From contig CAVSHT010000004.1 in the NCBI GenBank assembly GCA_963727895.1, positions 1-64,000 of the forward strand: a DNA stretch of 64,000 nt, in the 5' to 3' direction. A program made the position numbers and the translations under genes. This DNA is from an uncultured Methanosarcinaceae archaeon. GTDB lineage: Archaea > Halobacteriota > Methanosarcinia > Methanosarcinales > Methanosarcinaceae. Below, in pieces: positions 2,813 to 54,090 of the stretch (positions within the stretch are counted from its first letter, which is position 1; each line of letters begins with the position of its first letter). The notes under the pieces are model-generated. The model made no database searches. It was given only the letters and a program-made list of their open reading frames with translations, and had not been told where the DNA came from.

Positions 2813-3668
2813 AGTTCCGTTGCAAAAAATATCTGCTAGGGATATACTAAAATAAAAATGAAATCAAAGATGGTGATATACTATCTAATTCCTTTAAATG
2901 GAAACACTTTGTAAGTGAAATTATCTTATTGAATGTGAGATGGTACTTAAAATACCCACTTAGCTATAGAAATTTAAAGGACATGATGGCAGAAAGGGGA
3001 GTAGAAGTTGATCACAGTACTATCATGAGATGGGTACATCAATATTCACCTGAAATAGAAAAGAAGGTCAGAAGACATTTAAGACCAACTAATAACTCTT
3101 GGAGAGTTGATGAGACTTACGTAAAAGTGAAAGGTGAATGGAAATATTTTTACCGAGCAGTTGACTCAAATGGAGATACAATTGATTTCGTGTTAAGTGC
3201 AAAACGAGACCAAGAAGCAGCGAACAGATTCTTCAAAAAAGCTTTGAACTCTAATCATAATCAAATTCCAAGAGTAATAACAGTTGACAAAAATCCAGCT
3301 TATCCACCTGCTATAGATAAACTGAAAAATGATAAAATACTACCTATAAACGTAGGCATTCGACAAATCAAGTATTTGAATAACATTATAGAACAAGATC
3401 ATAGATCCATTAAACGAATAGTTAATCTAATGTTAGGATTTCAGTCTTTTCGATCTGCCAACAAAACTTTAAAAGGAATTGAAGCTATGAATATGGTTAA
3501 AAAAGGACAAATCAAAAATTTTAATTATTCTGGTCTTAATGAAGCTAAATATATTAATCAATTATTTAGAATAGTTCTATAATATTGACACATTTTCTTA
3601 AATATTTGTACTTTTGTTTATTGATTATGGATTTACATGCTTATTCTGAGATTTTTTGCAAAGGAACC
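2813..3668 (+). mobile_element. IS6-family element; transposase start codon mutated
   Basis: TIR (G)GTTCCGTTGCAAAAA at both ends; DDE transposase motifs WRVDETY, ITVDKNP, NNIIEQDHR; ATG of other copies is ATA here. Confidence 0.95.
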
Positions 3669-31134: not shown

Positions 31135-31684
31135 CAATGTTAAGGCACACTATTTTTTTTGATTATGTATCACTACAACGAGAGCGCTTAATATACCCAT
31201 CAAAACAGCAATATAAATCGACACTGTAAAACGAATTGTCCCACCCTTATTCATAAACACAACAGATGCTGAACAACTATAATAAATAGAGTACTCTATC
31301 ACTGGATAAATATAATAAAAGAAAGCAATTGAAGCTCAAAGAGCAAAAAAGCATTGTGGCAATTCGAATAATTTAGTTTTCTAGTGACCAATTTTTCATT
31401 AGTCACTATACACGCTGATTTTCTCTTAACAAAAACGGTATTGGTAATCAAAAATAGGCATATATGCTTATAACATATATTTCTTCATGAACTGCCCCAG
31501 ATGCAATAGTTCTAGTCACAAAAAGGATGGTATAGTTGGCGGGCGTCAACGGTACAAATGCTCTGATTGTGGCTATAACTATACAGTAGAGCTAAAATCA
31601 ACTGCTTTTTCCGCTTCTATAAAAAGACAGGCTTTACAACTCTATCTTGAAGGATTGGGTTTTCGCTCAATAGGAAGAGTTTAG

Positions 31685-33203
31685 CATGAAAGTACATGAG
31701 GATATCTTCCTCACGTGCTCTCTTCATCCTCTTTTCCCTTTATTGCAAATATTTCACTAATTATTTTTATCCGTTCATCAACCGAGAATATCTCGGTCTC
31801 AACAATCTTCCTCTTTTGAATTTCTCCCTTTTTGATATCCAGTTTCATCTTCGTACATCTCATCGTTTGCAATAAGATGCCATATTATCGTTGCAATTTT
31901 CCTTGCCAAGGCAATAATTGCCTTTGAATGCCCAATTGACTTCTTTTTCCTGTTAAAAAACTCTTTTAACTTACTGTTATTCTTTCTTGCCGCTGCTTGA
32001 GCAATCTGTGTCAGAATCCATCTTGCTCTCTTTGATCCTCTCTTTGTGATTCTTCCGTTGTGGTATTTATCTGCAGATTGGTACACATTAGGAACCAGAC
32101 CAAGCCAGGAAGCAAGCTTATCTCCAGAAGAAAAATCCTTGAAATTGCCTATTTCAGCAAGTAGAATTGCCGCACCAAGTTCTCCTATACCTGGAACTGA
32201 CATTAAAATCTCCATTTCTCGCTTATGATTTCGATAAGCATAATTGAAAATTTCTTTTTCTAAAGCTTCGAGTCTCATCATCAAGACTCTTTATGAGTTT
32301 CAGACAGATCTGAAGTCTGAATGCAGCACTTTGAGAGATTTCTCGATCAAGAATTTCTCTTATCTGAGCAGCTTTTTTTACGAACATTTGGAGAGAGGCT
32401 TGCGATAATCTGGTCAACAGTCTTACCTGAAGAGATTCCTGATAAGATCATTCTGCCATTCTTGCCAAAAATGTCTGTCAGCACATTCTTCAGGTTTAAC
32501 ATTTCAGATGCAAGAATTGAGTGAGCTTTATTTTTTAGATCTGTTCTTTTTTGTACAAGTGTTAACCGAAGTCGAACATATGATCTAAAATCTCTATGAT
32601 CCTTTGGAAAAACTCTTGATGGCTGAATCATATTATTAAGTGCAAGTTGTGCAATGACTTCTGAGTCAATCTTATCTGTTTTTTTATGGGTAAATACCTT
32701 CATATCTCGCGCATTTCCAACTATTACAGGTAGATGCTTTATCAATGAATCATGAATCGGAACCCAAAAGTCACTTGTTGATTCACATGCAACAACATCA
32801 CATTTTTCTGATGTTACCCAATTTTTAAGGGCTAAAATTCCCTCATCATCTCTGTTGAAACGTTGCTGTTGTTTTTCACCAGATCGACTGAGAATTGTAG
32901 CAATGAAAAAGAGTTTGTGAATGTCTAAACCACAAGCTTTGTTTATGACTTCAATCAAATTAATATCACCCAATTTATTTGGGCAGTGGAATTGCCTAAA
33001 AGGCCAATTTAGCATCCGTGATCAAAGTCACACTTGAGCCTTCGATGGCAATTCACTGATTAGTTTTATGACGGTTTTGAAAAACCAAAATCAGGACAAC
33101 CTTACTGCCCAAGGTAATGAGGGCTTAATAGTCCAAAAAAAGAACGGTAGAGTACTTTCATTTCGTTGTGCTTGTTATTCGAAGAATATCATGTGCGTTT
33201 TAG
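31685..33203 (-). mobile_element. IS110-family element (DEDD recombinase, frameshifted), copy 1
   Basis: CGLDIHK, ACESTS, KTDKIDS, SVPGIGE, WLGLVP..YQSA, ALARKIA; no conventional TIR/TSD; TTTAG at both junctions. Confidence 0.93.
32979..33112 (-). ncRNA. candidate IS110 bridge/seek RNA (structured non-coding end upstream of the recombinase), copy 1
   Basis: Closing stem TTGGGCAGT/ACTGCCCAA; internal stems AAGGC/GCCTT, GTGA/TCAC and GGTTT/AAACC are conserved in copy 2 while loops vary. Confidence 0.6.
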
Positions 33204-33746
33204 GGGTAAGCCATGTTTCTGTCCAAAAATGGATCAAGAAATTTGGTCAAGAGTGAGAGAACCTAAAAAGTGAAAGTGAGATATCTATTGTTGAAATGGA
33301 TGAGATGCACACTTACGTCGGTAACAAAAAAAATATTGCTGGATCTGGATTGCTGTTGATAGAGTTGGGAAAAAGTTCATCAACTGCTCTTTTGGCAGCA
33401 GAGGAACGGAAACTGGAAAACTACTCTGGGAAAAATTGAAGAAAAAAGACATTGGAGAAGTGATGACAGATCACTGGAGAGCATATGCAGAGTTTCTTCC
33501 AGAAAAGATTCATACTCAATCAAAAGCAGAAACATTTACAGTTGAGAGATATAACAGCATATTGAGGCATTTTCTAGCAAGATTAAGAAGAAAGACAAAG
33601 TGTTATACGAAGAGTCTTGAAATGCTAAAGTACTCGGTTATTCTATTGATGAAATACAGAAATAAAGAACTAGATATATTTAGATAACAATACCACAAAA
33701 ACAAGTTTGAATATCAAAAAAAAAGAATAGGAAAATATCTTATCTT

Positions 33747-52296: not shown

Positions 52297-52544
52297 GGCA
52301 TTGGTAAACAAAAATAGATATATGTGCTTATAACATATATTTCTGCATGAACTGCCCAAAATGTAATAGTTCTAATCACAAAAAGAATGGTATAGTTGGC
52401 GGGCGTCAACGCTACAAATGCCATGATTGTGGATATAACTATACAGTAGAGCTAAAATCAACTGCTTTTTCCGCTTCTGTAAAAAGACAGGCTTTACAAC
52501 TCTATCTTGAAGGATTGGGCTTTCGCTCAATAGGACGATTTTAG
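52297..52544 (+). mobile_element. IS1 left fragment ending at the IS110 insertion site
   Basis: GGCATTGGTAAAC end; insA up to FRSIGRF. Confidence 0.9.
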
Positions 52545-54056
52545 CATGAAAGTACATGAGGAGATTATCCTCACGTGCTCTCTTGATCCTTTTTCCCCAT
52601 AATCGCAAATATTCCACTAATTATTTTAATCCGTTCATCAACCGAAAAAAGCTCAGTCTCAATAATCTTTCTCTTTTGGATTTCTCCCTTTTGATATCCG
52701 GTTTCATCTTCGTCCATCTCATCGTTTGTAATAAGATGCCATAGTATCGTTGCAATTTTCCTTGCTAAAGCAATAATTGCTTTTGCATGTCCAATCGACT
52801 TCTTTTTTCTGTTAAAAAACTCTTTTAACCTGCTATTCTTCTTTCTTGCTGCTGCTTGAGCAATCTGTGTCAGAATCCACCTTGCTACTTTTGATCCCCT
52901 CTTTGTGATTCTGCCGTTATAGTATTTATCTGCAGATTGATACACATTAGGAACTAGACCAAGCCAAGAAGCAAGCTTATTTCCAGAAGAAAAATCCTTA
53001 AAGTTGCCTATTTCAGCAAGTAAAATTGCCGCACCAAGTTCCCCTATACCTGGAACTGACATTAAAATCTCCATTTCTCGCTTATGATTTCGAGAAGCAT
53101 AATTGAAAATTTATTTTTCTAAAGCTTCGAGTTCATCATCAAGACTTTTTATGAGTTTTAGACAGATCTGAAGTCTGAATGCAGCACTTTGAGAAATTTC
53201 TCGATCAAGAATTTCTCTTATCTGAGCAGCTTTTTTCCGAACATTTGGAGAGAGGCTTGCAATAATCTGATCAACACTCTTACCTGAAGAGATTCCTAAT
53301 AAAATCATTCTGCCATTCTTGCCAAAAACGTCTGTCAGAACATTATTCAGGTGTAGCATTTCAGATGCAAGAATTGAGTGAGCTTTATTTTTTAAATCTG
53401 TTCTTTTTTGTACAAGTGTTAACCGAAGTCGAACATATGATCTAAAATCTATATGATCCTTTGGAAAAACTCTTGATGGCTGAATCATATTATTAAGTGC
53501 AAGTTGTGCAATGACTTCTGAGTCAATCTTATCTGTTTTTGTATGGGTAAATACCTTCATATCTCGCGCATTTCCAACTATCACAGTTAGATGCTTTACC
53601 AATGAATCATGAATCGGAACCCAAAAGTCGCTGGTTGATTCACATGCAACAACATCACATTTTTCTGATATTACCCAATTTTTAAGGGCTAAAATTCCTT
53701 CATCATCTCTGTTGAAACGTTGCTGTTGTTTTTCACCAGATCTGCTGAGAATTGTAGCAATGAAAAAGAGTTTGTGAATGTCTAAACCACAAGCTTTGTT
53801 TACAATATCTACCAATTAAAATCACCAAAGTTATTTGGGCAGTGAAATGATCTCAAAGGCAATTTGACATCTGTGATCAAGGTCACATTTGAGCCTTCGG
53901 CGGTATTTAGTGGTTAGTTTTAGTAAGGTTTTGAAAAACCAAAATAAAGACAACCTTACTGCCCAACATTACAAGGGCTTAGTAGTCAAAAAAGAGAAGG
54001 TAAAGTACTTTCATGTATTTGTGCCTGTTATTCGAAGAATTTCATGTATGTTTTAG
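52545..54056 (-). mobile_element. IS110-family element, frameshifted, copy 2 (IS1 on the left, IS6 left end on the right)
   Basis: ORFs 53111..53815 and 52571..53074; TTTTAG at both junctions. Confidence 0.93.
53835..53966 (-). ncRNA. candidate IS110 bridge/seek RNA, copy 2
   Basis: Same closing stem TTGGGCAGT/ACTGCCCAA and internal stems as 32979..33112. Confidence 0.6.
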
Positions 54057-54090
54057 TATATCCCTAGCAGATATTTTTTGCAACGGAACC

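What the first reader, a model, noticed from the sequence alone, without database searches (positions are those of the whole stretch)
53835..53966. Two natural variants of a putative bridge RNA whose variable segments track their targets
Seen: the non-coding ends keep the same stems but differ in short segments. Copy 2, adjacent to the IS6 target, has CCAAAATAAA (53939-53948; 9/10 to the IS6 site CTAAAATAAA) and TTTTAGTA (53918-53925; identical to the junction at 54051-54058). Copy 1 instead has CCAAAATC (33085-33092), resembling the IS1 site CTAAAATC, and TTTAGCAT (33008-33015), matching the donor end. Inference: these are target- and donor-guide loops, i.e. natural reprogramming. Caveat: the matches are short and AT-rich, some may simply be stems, and copy 2 lacks the perfect donor match.
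Basis: inference. Interest (0 to 1): 0.7.

Follow-up and report, generated by a model that had tools for sequence, protein, structure and literature searches.

The report
Bridge RNA of an archaeal insertion sequence
The stretch is the guide-RNA gene of a decayed jumping gene in a Methanosarcina genome, and its short variable loops do spell out where the element inserts, which makes it a natural but unsurprising case of RNA-guided retargeting.

Summary
This lies just upstream of an IS110-family RNA-guided transposase gene (Pfam PF01548 + PF02371; NCBIfam NF033542, 261 bits).

The fold is a closing helix around two stem-loops. It recurs in 42 of 151 Methanosarcinaceae genomes searched. Across 47 distinct sequences, 23 of 37 pairs show compensatory changes.

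- **Target loop (stem-loop 1):** the 3' strand repeats the left insertion junction, and the 5' strand is antisense to the right flank.
- **Donor loop (stem-loop 2):** the 3' strand repeats the element's own right end.
- **Covariation:** all three track their DNA partners across lineages (0 of 10,000 class permutations for each flank).

Copy 2 is a mosaic. Its first ~300 nt are a second RNA type aimed at an IS6 end. The rest is 98-100% the common type, which is aimed at an IS1 site. This explains its IS6/IS1 flanks and its donor mismatch.

The guide order is IS1111-like, but the RNA lies upstream as in IS110-type elements. Both window copies are dead, and no RNA evidence was obtained. This is a known mechanism in a modestly new variant.

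The parts
52540..54056 (-). Copy 2 of the IS110-family element (mosaic). The boundaries are uncertain by about 2 nt because donor and target share an A-run.
   Evidence: Junctions read. The mosaic is shown: element positions 1-300 are 89-93% identical to the type-B copy at G000:C4:94172 and 80-84% to type A. From position 301 on, copy 2 is 95-100% identical to type A and 58-86% to type B.
53835..53966 (-). Bridge/seek RNA core of copy 2: a closing helix enclosing stem-loop 1 (target loop) and stem-loop 2 (donor loop).
   Evidence: Model R1 match at 136.4 bits, E 8e-35. Fold energy -37.1 kcal/mol, z -3.48.
53941..53950 (-). 5' strand of the stem-loop 1 internal loop. [quoted passage not shown]
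   Evidence: Its reverse complement matches 8 consecutive letters of the intact IS6-end site at window 2849-2856.
53917..53926 (-). 3' strand of the stem-loop 1 internal loop. This is the guide with the same sense as the left half of the target.
   Evidence: Nine letters are identical to the left junction at 54050-58. The diagonal of highest mutual information with the junction columns is 1.13, 0.75, 0.66 and 0.39 bits.
53927..53940 (-). Apical hairpin of stem-loop 1.
   Evidence: Helix 3: 83% of cells paired, 2 pairs with compensatory change.
53861..53872 (-). 3' strand of the stem-loop 2 internal loop, the donor guide. The 8 letters at 53863-53870 predict the right end of a type-B element.
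   Evidence: It matches copy 2's own right end at only 6 of 8. It is identical to the type-B right-end remnants at G000:C5:174472 and C14:3337 and to two miniature elements.
53967..54056 (-). Terminal part of the non-coding end, upstream of the RNA core. It holds two copies of the subterminal repeat (54040-54046 and 54005-54014), a T-run and an AT-rich box about 25 nt before the closing helix.
   Evidence: Read. The promoter role of the AT-rich box is an inference only.
52571..53815 (-). Transposase gene of copy 2, interrupted by a single in-frame TAA at 53111-53113.
   Evidence: Pfam PF01548 (E 6.6e-21) and PF02371 (E 1.9e-27). It is 225 of 233 residues identical to the full-length copy P0001.
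52545..52555 (-). Subterminal repeat at the right end of copy 2. The right end proper is 52540-52548 and is of type A.
54057..54090 (-). Remnant of an IS6-family terminal inverted repeat. This is the left flank of copy 2.
   Evidence: The same end is found about 40 times in the genome.
52347..52539 (+). IS1-type fragment forming the right flank of copy 2. It is cut at the same site as in copy 1.
   Evidence: Pfam PF03400 hits the downstream IS1 part beside copy 1.
2845..2856 (+). Intact 12-letter site in an uninterrupted IS6 end. It is matched by both target guides of copy 2.
31680..33203 (-). Copy 1 of the element (type A, frameshifted), inserted in an IS1 element.
32977..33113 (-). Bridge/seek RNA core of copy 1. 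The 5' target guide is 33087-33096, the 3' target guide is 33063-33072 and the donor guide is 33008-33015.
   Evidence: Model match at 159.1 bits. Fold energy -43.3 kcal/mol, z -3.66. The donor guide matches copy 1's own right end 8 of 8.

Best explanation
53835-53966 (minus strand) is the gene for a bridge RNA (also called seekRNA). It belongs to an IS110-family insertion sequence of a Methanosarcina genome and lies in the non-coding end upstream of the transposase gene, in the same direction.

The RNA is about 135-140 nt. It folds into a closing helix that holds two stem-loops, each with an internal loop.

[quoted passage not shown] The 3' strand pairs with the bottom strand to the left of it. 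The two guides overlap on a run of A, where exchange must occur.

**Donor reading (stem-loop 2).** The 3' strand of the loop pairs in the same way with the element's own right end.

The DEDD/serine recombinase would then exchange strands between the circularised element and the target, as shown for IS621 and ISEc11.

**Two RNA types in this genome.**
- Type A (22 of 24 copies, including copy 1) is aimed at a site inside IS1.
- Type B (copy 2 and one truncated copy) is aimed at a site inside the end of an IS6 element.

**Copy 2 is a mosaic.** It is a type-B RNA end joined to a type-A body near the start codon, most likely by homologous recombination between an element in IS6 and one in IS1. Its left flank is therefore IS6 and its right flank IS1, and its donor loop does not fit its own right end.

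**Shown here:** the fold, its conservation, the guide-flank and guide-end covariation, and the mosaic.

**Inferred:** that the RNA is made, that the recombinase binds it, and the chemistry.
For: **Protein**
- Pfam PF01548 and PF02371 both hit.
- NCBIfam NF033542, 'IS110 family RNA-guided transposase': 261 bits against a cut-off of 140.
- PDB IS621 transposase: E 3.7e-9.

**Fold**
- 21 sequences: 88.4% of cells paired, 15 of 37 pairs compensatory, 0 of 500 shuffles as high.
- 47 distinct sequences: 91.8% paired, 23 of 37 pairs compensatory, 0 of 500 shuffles. Slid controls give 28-48% paired.

**Strand**
- Two helix positions are G-U in 43 and 44 of 46 sequences. Others alternate G-C with G-U.
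- These would be A-C mismatches on the plus strand.

**Distribution**
- Model hits in 42 of 151 family genomes, in 6 of 16 genera.

**Target guides**
- Left junction: 3.48 against 1.76 of 5; 0 of 10,000 permutations.
- Right flank: 6.44 against 5.64 of 9; 0 of 10,000 permutations.
- Mutual information between RNA columns and left-junction columns forms a diagonal.

**Donor guide**
- Of 10 distinct RNA/right-end pairs, 6 match 8 of 8, 2 match 7 of 8 and 2 match 6 of 8.
- One of the two 6-of-8 pairs is the mosaic copy 2.

**Empty sites**
- 216 uninterrupted IS1 sites carry the left-half letters, so those letters belong to the target.
- Occupied IS1 sites are enriched for the variant that fits the 5' guide: 13 of 16 occupied against 63 of 216 empty, Fisher p 5e-5.

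**Copy 2**
- Both guides fit 12 consecutive letters of an intact IS6 end.
Against: - **No RNA evidence.** No public RNA run holds this stretch. Contigs of relatives cover only 53836-53899 and 54002-54055, at 80-95% likeness, and cannot show strand or ends.
- **Fold energy does not pick the strand.** z is -3.5 and -3.7 on the minus strand, and -3.1 and -4.0 on the plus strand.
- **The right-flank effect is modest.** Several lineages fit badly, for example L088 and L095.
- **Relatives are not independent,** and alignment A3 was fitted to the model.
- **All sites are A-rich.**
- **No guide was found for the donor's other half,** the left end of the element.
- **The IS1 enrichment has another possible cause.** IS1 copies that already carried the insert may have spread (could not tell).
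- **No copy in this assembly looks active.** Copy 2 has a stop and copy 1 has frameshifts. The only uninterrupted reading frame has Tyr where 25 of 26 relatives have a conserved Asp.
Confidence: 0.85

Rival explanations
1. The matches are chance or mere stem sequence. In AT-rich DNA, short A/T strings recur, and the two segments pair with each other.
For: - The 12-letter site is not rare: 6 in the genome against about 4.4 expected, and 3 in the window at up to 1 mismatch against 2.28 expected.
- The minimum-energy fold pairs four A-U between the two guides.
Against: - The segments lie between stems that covary.
- Their letters change together with the flanks across 28 and 22 guide classes; 0 of 10,000 permutations each.
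- The A-U self-pairing is expected, because both guides cover the shared A-run.
Confidence: 0.03
2. The segments act as DNA, not RNA. They would be protein-read copies of the junction sequences in the element's end, for example extra transposase binding sites, and the conserved fold would be a by-product.
For: - No RNA was demonstrated.
- The end does hold repeated DNA motifs: subterminal repeats in two copies on the left and one on the right.
- Fold energy is alike on both strands.
Against: - Compensatory changes occur in 23 of 37 pairs, and G-U pairs make sense on one strand only.
- One guide is sense and the other antisense to the target. This is the pattern of the RNA guides shown experimentally in this protein family (passages).
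- The protein falls in NCBIfam's RNA-guided transposase family.
Confidence: 0.07
3. The fold is only a 5' leader controlling translation of the transposase. The differences between the copies are ordinary divergence between two element lineages, with no link to targets.
For: - The fold ends about 20 nt before the ribosome-binding site and start codon.
- Earlier work proposed regulatory roles for IS110 non-coding ends (passage).
Against: - This does not explain why loop letters repeat the left junction, the right flank and the right end, lineage by lineage.
- A leader role could coexist with the guide role.
Confidence: 0.05

Closest known systems
IS621 / ISEc21 bridge RNA (IS110-type; Durrant 2024, PMC11208160; Hiraizumi 2024, PMC11208158; Siddiquee 2024, PMC11187229; passages read)
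   Same: - The recombinase has the DEDD RuvC-like and Tnp domains.
- The RNA gene lies upstream of the transposase, in the left non-coding end.
- There are two internal loops, one for the target and one for the donor.
- Each target guide covers the crossover letters.
- Loop letters covary naturally with insertion sites.
   Different: - The guide order is reversed. Here the guide that pairs with the top strand comes first (5'). In IS621/ISEc21 the bottom-strand guide comes first.
- The overlap is an A-run of 3-6 letters, not a fixed dinucleotide.
- Only one donor guide was found.
- The host is an archaeon.
- Protein similarity to IS621 is weak (E 3.7e-9, C-terminal domain only).
IS1111-type seekRNA elements (ISEc11, ISPa11, ISKpn4; Siddiquee 2024, passages read)
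   Same: - The top-strand guide comes before the bottom-strand guide.
- Subterminal inverted repeats are present.
- A spacer of 9-10 bp lies between the repeats in the reconstructed circle junction. This equals the 3 + 7 (or 3 + 6) bp terminal extensions quoted.
- Natural reprogramming between relatives is seen.
- The targets are other mobile elements.
   Different: - The RNA-coding end is upstream of the transposase here, not downstream.
- The terminal repeat is short: 4-8 bp in the copies read, against the usual 11-13 bp. A better 10-bp copy lies about 40 nt inside the left end.
- Full-length relatedness to the IS1111 transposase was not tested.
ISMtsp17 (named in Siddiquee 2024 as an IS1111 relative with an upstream non-coding region; passage)
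   Same: It is a known exception combining IS1111 traits with an upstream non-coding region.
   Different: Its sequence, guide order and host were not seen here, so no comparison was possible.
IS4321 / IS5075 (title of Partridge and Hall 2003 seen in a reference list)
   Same: They are IS110-family elements that insert into the terminal inverted repeats of other transposons. The type-B element here does the same with an IS6 end.
   Different: They are bacterial and target Tn21-family repeats. Nothing beyond the title was read.

Membership tests
IS110-family bridge-RNA elements (broad sense) | Recombinase with a DEDD RuvC-like domain and a Tnp domain | tested here: met
   PF01548 E 6.6e-21 and PF02371 E 1.9e-27. 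NF033542 at 261 bits against a cut-off of 140.
IS110-family bridge-RNA elements (broad sense) | A long non-coding end that encodes a conserved structured RNA with internal loops | tested here: met
   Non-coding end of about 240 nt. 23 of 37 pairs compensatory, 91.8% of cells paired.
IS110-family bridge-RNA elements (broad sense) | Loop letters covary with both halves of the target | tested here: met
   0 of 10,000 permutations on each side.
IS110-family bridge-RNA elements (broad sense) | A second loop matches both halves of the donor (the joined ends) | tested here: inconclusive
   The right-end half is matched: 6 of 10 distinct pairs are perfect. By eye over, the 5' side of that loop does not follow the left end. 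A systematic scan could not be run.
IS110-family bridge-RNA elements (broad sense) | The RNA is expressed and bound by the recombinase | not testable with these tools
   Searches gave only contigs of relatives, without strand or ends.
IS110-type in the narrow sense (IS621, ISEc21) | The bottom-strand (left) guide is on the 5' side of the loop and the top-strand (right) guide on the 3' side | tested here: not met
   Here the 5' side is antisense to the right flank and the 3' side repeats the left junction. The definitions come from passages.
IS110-type in the narrow sense (IS621, ISEc21) | The non-coding region lies upstream of the transposase gene | tested here: met
IS1111-type | The top-strand guide comes before the bottom-strand guide | tested here: met
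   with the passage.
IS1111-type | Subterminal inverted repeats, usually 11-13 bp, set 7 (or 6) bp and 3 bp from the ends | tested here: inconclusive
   Reading. The spacing fits: a 9-10 bp spacer in the reconstructed junction. The terminal repeat is only 4-8 bp. A 10-bp perfect copy lies about 40 nt inside the left end.
IS1111-type | The non-coding region lies downstream of the transposase gene | tested here: not met
   Only about 30-60 nt lie between the stop codon and the right end.
IS1111-type | The transposase is related to that of IS1111 over its full length | not tested
   No named IS1111 reference protein was at hand. tblastn against plasmids gave only unnamed 'IS110 family transposase' hits.

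The most novel reading that the evidence does not exclude
These Methanosarcina elements are a distinct architectural class of RNA-guided insertion sequence.

- The RNA lies upstream, as in IS110-type elements.
- The guide order, subterminal repeats and junction spacing are those of IS1111-type elements.
- Only one donor half is read by RNA. The other may be read by protein.
- The RNA may have its own archaeal promoter inside the end.
- Miniature elements of about 75 bp, made of the two termini alone, would be served in trans by whichever RNA has a fitting donor loop.

The mosaic copy 2 would then show that the RNA module can pass between elements by recombination. This would be a natural route to retargeting beyond point mutation.
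Probability: 0.35. Interest if true: 0.55.

Novelty: new variant of a known kind. Interest (0 to 1): 0.4.

Why it matters
Bridge and seek RNAs are the newest class of programmable genome-rearranging tools. Almost all tested examples are bacterial.

This family gives a compact, well-conserved archaeal RNA (about 140 nt) with many natural guide variants and readable empty sites. Its layout mixes the traits used to separate IS110-type from IS1111-type elements. It could therefore help show which features are needed for recombination and which are historical.

For this genome the result is ordinary. The elements are decayed, and they mainly record how one insertion sequence preyed on two others (IS1 and IS6).

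Tried and rejected
- **Rfam.** There was no match at gathering scores in the whole window. In E-value mode on 53780-54080, only three matches appeared, all far below gathering (18.3 against 65, 17.2 against 52, and 12.7 against 44 bits).
- **RNA runs.** 24 runs were listed, and none held more than 0.15 of the sampled words. Laying 4 of them at 80% likeness gave contigs of relatives over 53836-53899 and 54002-54055 only. Nothing covered the target loop, and there was no information on strand or ends. This says nothing about expression.
- **Independence of IS1 insertions.** I compared 150-nt flanks to tell whether occupied IS1 copies were hit independently or spread as IS1-plus-insert units. The right flanks did not discriminate (nearest empty copy at 1-6 differences, and at 51 for one copy; nearest occupied copy at 0-7, and at 82 for that same copy). 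My left-flank comparison was out of register and is void.
- **Mutual information on the right side.** With 24 sequences the result is dominated by noise from relatedness. I rely on the permutation test instead.
- **Subgroup assignment.** tblastn against plasmids found 3,236 records, all named only 'IS110 family transposase'. This was uninformative.
- **Guide for the donor's left half.** A script to scan each lineage's non-coding end for a stretch antisense to its own left terminus was not run, because a limit on typed letters was reached. The question stays open.
- **Antisense RNA.** I considered that the RNA might be read from the plus strand. I rejected this because of the G-U pairs, and because that strand would give a guide geometry matching neither known type.

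Full report
**What is there**

The finding lies on the minus strand, in the non-coding end upstream of a transposase gene. The two halves of that gene hit Pfam PF01548 (DEDD RuvC-like, E 6.6e-21) and PF02371 (E 1.9e-27). A full-length copy elsewhere in the genome (P0001, 390 aa) scores 261 bits against NCBIfam NF033542, 'IS110 family RNA-guided transposase' (cut-off 140). It weakly matches the solved IS621 transposase (E 3.7e-9).

The window is contig C4:1-64000 of a 3.67-Mb assembly that is 84% complete. Close relatives of the protein come from Methanosarcina, with more distant ones in Methanospirillum, Methanoculleus and Methanoperedens records.

The interval 53835-53966 runs exactly from one strand of a long-range helix to the other.

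**Copies in the genome**

The non-coding end has 28 matches in the genome, 24 of them at least 194 nt long. In an alignment of 24 copies, 22 share one form (type A, including copy 1). Two share another (type B: copy 2 and a truncated copy at C4:94172).

Most type-A copies sit at one site inside IS1 elements. Several have a different flank on one or both sides.

The genome holds 216 uninterrupted IS1 sites and 16 occupied ones by my anchors, and about 40 IS6 ends. The uninterrupted IS1 sites contain the letters that precede the element in occupied sites. Those letters therefore belong to the target, not the element.

**The fold**

Folding gives a closing helix around two stem-loops, each with an internal loop.

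- On 21 sequences from 16 or so lineages, my hand-drawn structure has 88.4% of cells paired and 15 of 37 pairs with compensatory change. None of 500 shuffles is as high.
- A covariance model built from it finds the RNA in 42 of 151 genomes of the family searched, in 6 of 16 genera.
- On the 47 distinct sequences among 63 matches, 91.8% of cells pair and 23 of 37 pairs show compensatory change. Slid controls give 28-48%. That alignment was fitted to the model, which favours it.
- Fold energy is about 3.5 sd below shuffles on either strand, so it does not choose the strand.
- The G-U pairs do choose the strand. Two positions are G-U in 43 and 44 of 46 sequences, and others alternate G-C with G-U. 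This makes sense only on the transposase strand.
- Rfam has nothing that matches.

**The loops read the flanks**

I extracted the loop strands from the model alignment and the junctions from the loci.

*Left junction.* The 3' strand of the stem-loop 1 loop has the same sense as the left junction.
- The data are 51 distinct guide/junction pairs in 28 guide classes.
- The five variable positions match 3.48 of 5 in cognate pairs and 1.76 (sd 0.24) when classes are permuted. None of 10,000 permutations reaches the observed value.
- Six of the 62 full-length matches had no recognisable left anchor and no hand entry, and were dropped. For nine distant loci I entered the junction by hand.
- The highest mutual information between RNA columns and junction columns forms a same-sense diagonal (1.13, 0.75, 0.66, 0.39 bits).

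*Right flank.* The 5' strand of the same loop is antisense to the right flank.
- The data are 43 sites in 22 classes.
- The best match is 6.44 of 9 against 5.64 (sd 0.22); 0 of 10,000 permutations.
- 13 of these sites are right ends of M. spelaei contigs that are not physically linked to a particular left end.
- Loci whose right end lay outside the DNA held were dropped.
- The effect is real but modest, and some lineages fit badly (L088, L095).

*Right end (donor).* The 3' strand of the stem-loop 2 loop repeats the element's right end. Of 10 distinct RNA/right-end pairs, 6 match 8 of 8, 2 match 7 of 8 and 2 match 6 of 8.

*Donor left end.* By eye I saw no relation between the 5' strand of that loop and the element's left end. 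A systematic scan could not be run.

**Evidence within this genome**

The type-A 5' guide fits one IS1 site variant over 7 letters and the majority variant over only the A-run. Occupied sites are 13 of 16 of the fitting kind, against 63 of 216 empty sites (Fisher p 5e-5).

This could also arise if IS1 copies already carrying the insert had spread. My attempt to tell the two apart failed.

**Copy 2**

Its two target guides together spell 12 consecutive letters. These occur in an uninterrupted IS6 end at window 2845-2856. The left junction of copy 2 lies at exactly that place in another IS6 end (54057-54090).

The 12-mer is not rare in itself (6 in the genome against about 4.4 expected). However, 3 of the 6 are in IS6-type ends.

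The right flank of copy 2 is IS1, cut at the type-A site. The identity profile explains this:
- Over the first 300 positions, copy 2 is 89-93% identical to the other type-B copy and 80-84% to type A.
- From position 301 on, it is 95-100% identical to type A and 58-86% to type B.

Copy 2 is therefore a recombinant between a type-B element in IS6 and a type-A element in IS1, with the breakpoint near the start codon. No reciprocal product was seen in this assembly.

Copy 2's donor loop matches its own (type-A) right end at 6 of 8. It is identical to type-B right-end remnants at C5:174472 and C14:3337 and to the right ends of two miniature elements.

**State of the copies**

- Copy 2's gene has one in-frame TAA and is otherwise full length.
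- Copy 1 has frameshifts.
- Most type-A copies are about 18-20 nt longer than the full-length form and have broken frames.
- The single uninterrupted frame has Tyr where 25 of 26 relatives carry the first Asp of a conserved Asp-x-x-Asp motif. This count covers the relatives in which my pattern found the motif; 32 loci were scanned.
- By spacing, that Asp corresponds to D102 of IS621, whose mutation abolishes recombination (passage). The correspondence is my inference.
- So no copy in this 84%-complete assembly looks active.

**Comparison with what is known**

Durrant et al. [quoted passage not shown] Siddiquee et al. (PMC11187229, passages) state three things:
- The non-coding region is usually downstream in IS1111-type elements and upstream in IS110-type elements, with named exceptions.
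- IS1111-type elements have subterminal repeats set 7 (or 6) and 3 bp from the ends.

Here the top-strand guide comes first, as in IS1111-type elements, but the RNA lies upstream, as in IS110-type elements.

Reading the ends, the reconstructed circle junction has a 9-10 bp spacer between two short inverted repeats. This fits the IS1111 spacing. However, the terminal repeat is only 4-8 bp, and a better 10-bp copy lies about 40 nt inside the left end. That internal copy covaries with the right end between Methanosarcina and Methanospirillum elements.

Geometrically, the RNA-DNA pairing equals that of IS621 if both target and donor are turned by 180 degrees relative to the genes.

Vaysset et al. 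(bioRxiv 10.1101/2024.06.21.599552, passages) list 662 archaeal IS110 recombinases but, in the passages seen, say nothing about their RNAs. One search for bridge RNA together with archaea, IS110 and Methanosarcina listed no paper describing this RNA. That is one search of one library, not proof that it is unpublished. Supplementary tables of the 2024 papers, which I did not open, may list these elements.

**Verdict**

The mechanism is a known one. The layout is a modest variant, and copy 2 is a relic whose interest lies in showing a swap of the RNA module between elements.

Noticed in passing
G000:C4:415170-415223 (-), G000:C16:3587-3638 (+), G000:C7:77945-77989 (+); outside the window: These are miniature elements of about 75 bp. 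Each is made of the first ~52 nt of the left end joined to the last ~16 nt of a right end, with no RNA core and no gene. Two of them carry the type-B right end that fits copy 2's donor loop. The flanks of the C16 copy resemble the type-B target. RNA-library contigs of related organisms also match only this terminal piece.
   Followed up: partly
G000:C4:393125-394297 (-) = L016:326-1495: This is the only uninterrupted transposase frame in the assembly. It has Tyr in place of a conserved Asp that 25 of 26 relatives keep, so it may be inactive.
   Followed up: partly
whole genome G000; in the window e.g. 31487-31684, 33205-33687, 52347-52544: The load of insertion sequences is very heavy. My anchors count 216 uninterrupted and 16 interrupted IS1-type sites and about 40 IS6-type ends in 3.67 Mb.
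   Followed up: no
G000:C5:174462-174675 (-) and G000:C14 near 3337 (+): These are remnants of type-B right ends with no left end nearby. They are the only trace of a complete type-B element in the assembly.
   Followed up: partly
G000:C6:20878-25505 (+) and G000:C8:141070-142566 (-): One type-A copy carries an insertion of about 3 kb with a 257-aa reading frame. Another is cut at its left end by an IS6 end. Both are nested insertions among the three IS families.
   Followed up: no
window 53967-54000 (-) and the same place in relatives: A conserved T-run followed by an AT-rich box lies about 25 nt before the closing helix of the RNA. It is possibly an archaeal terminator and promoter pair that would give the RNA its own start. 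This was not tested.
   Followed up: no
L039 (Methanosarcina MAG), downstream of its transposase gene: Two right-end-like motifs lie about 20 nt apart. The first does not fit that element's donor loop and the second does. This may be a nested or tandem end.
   Followed up: no
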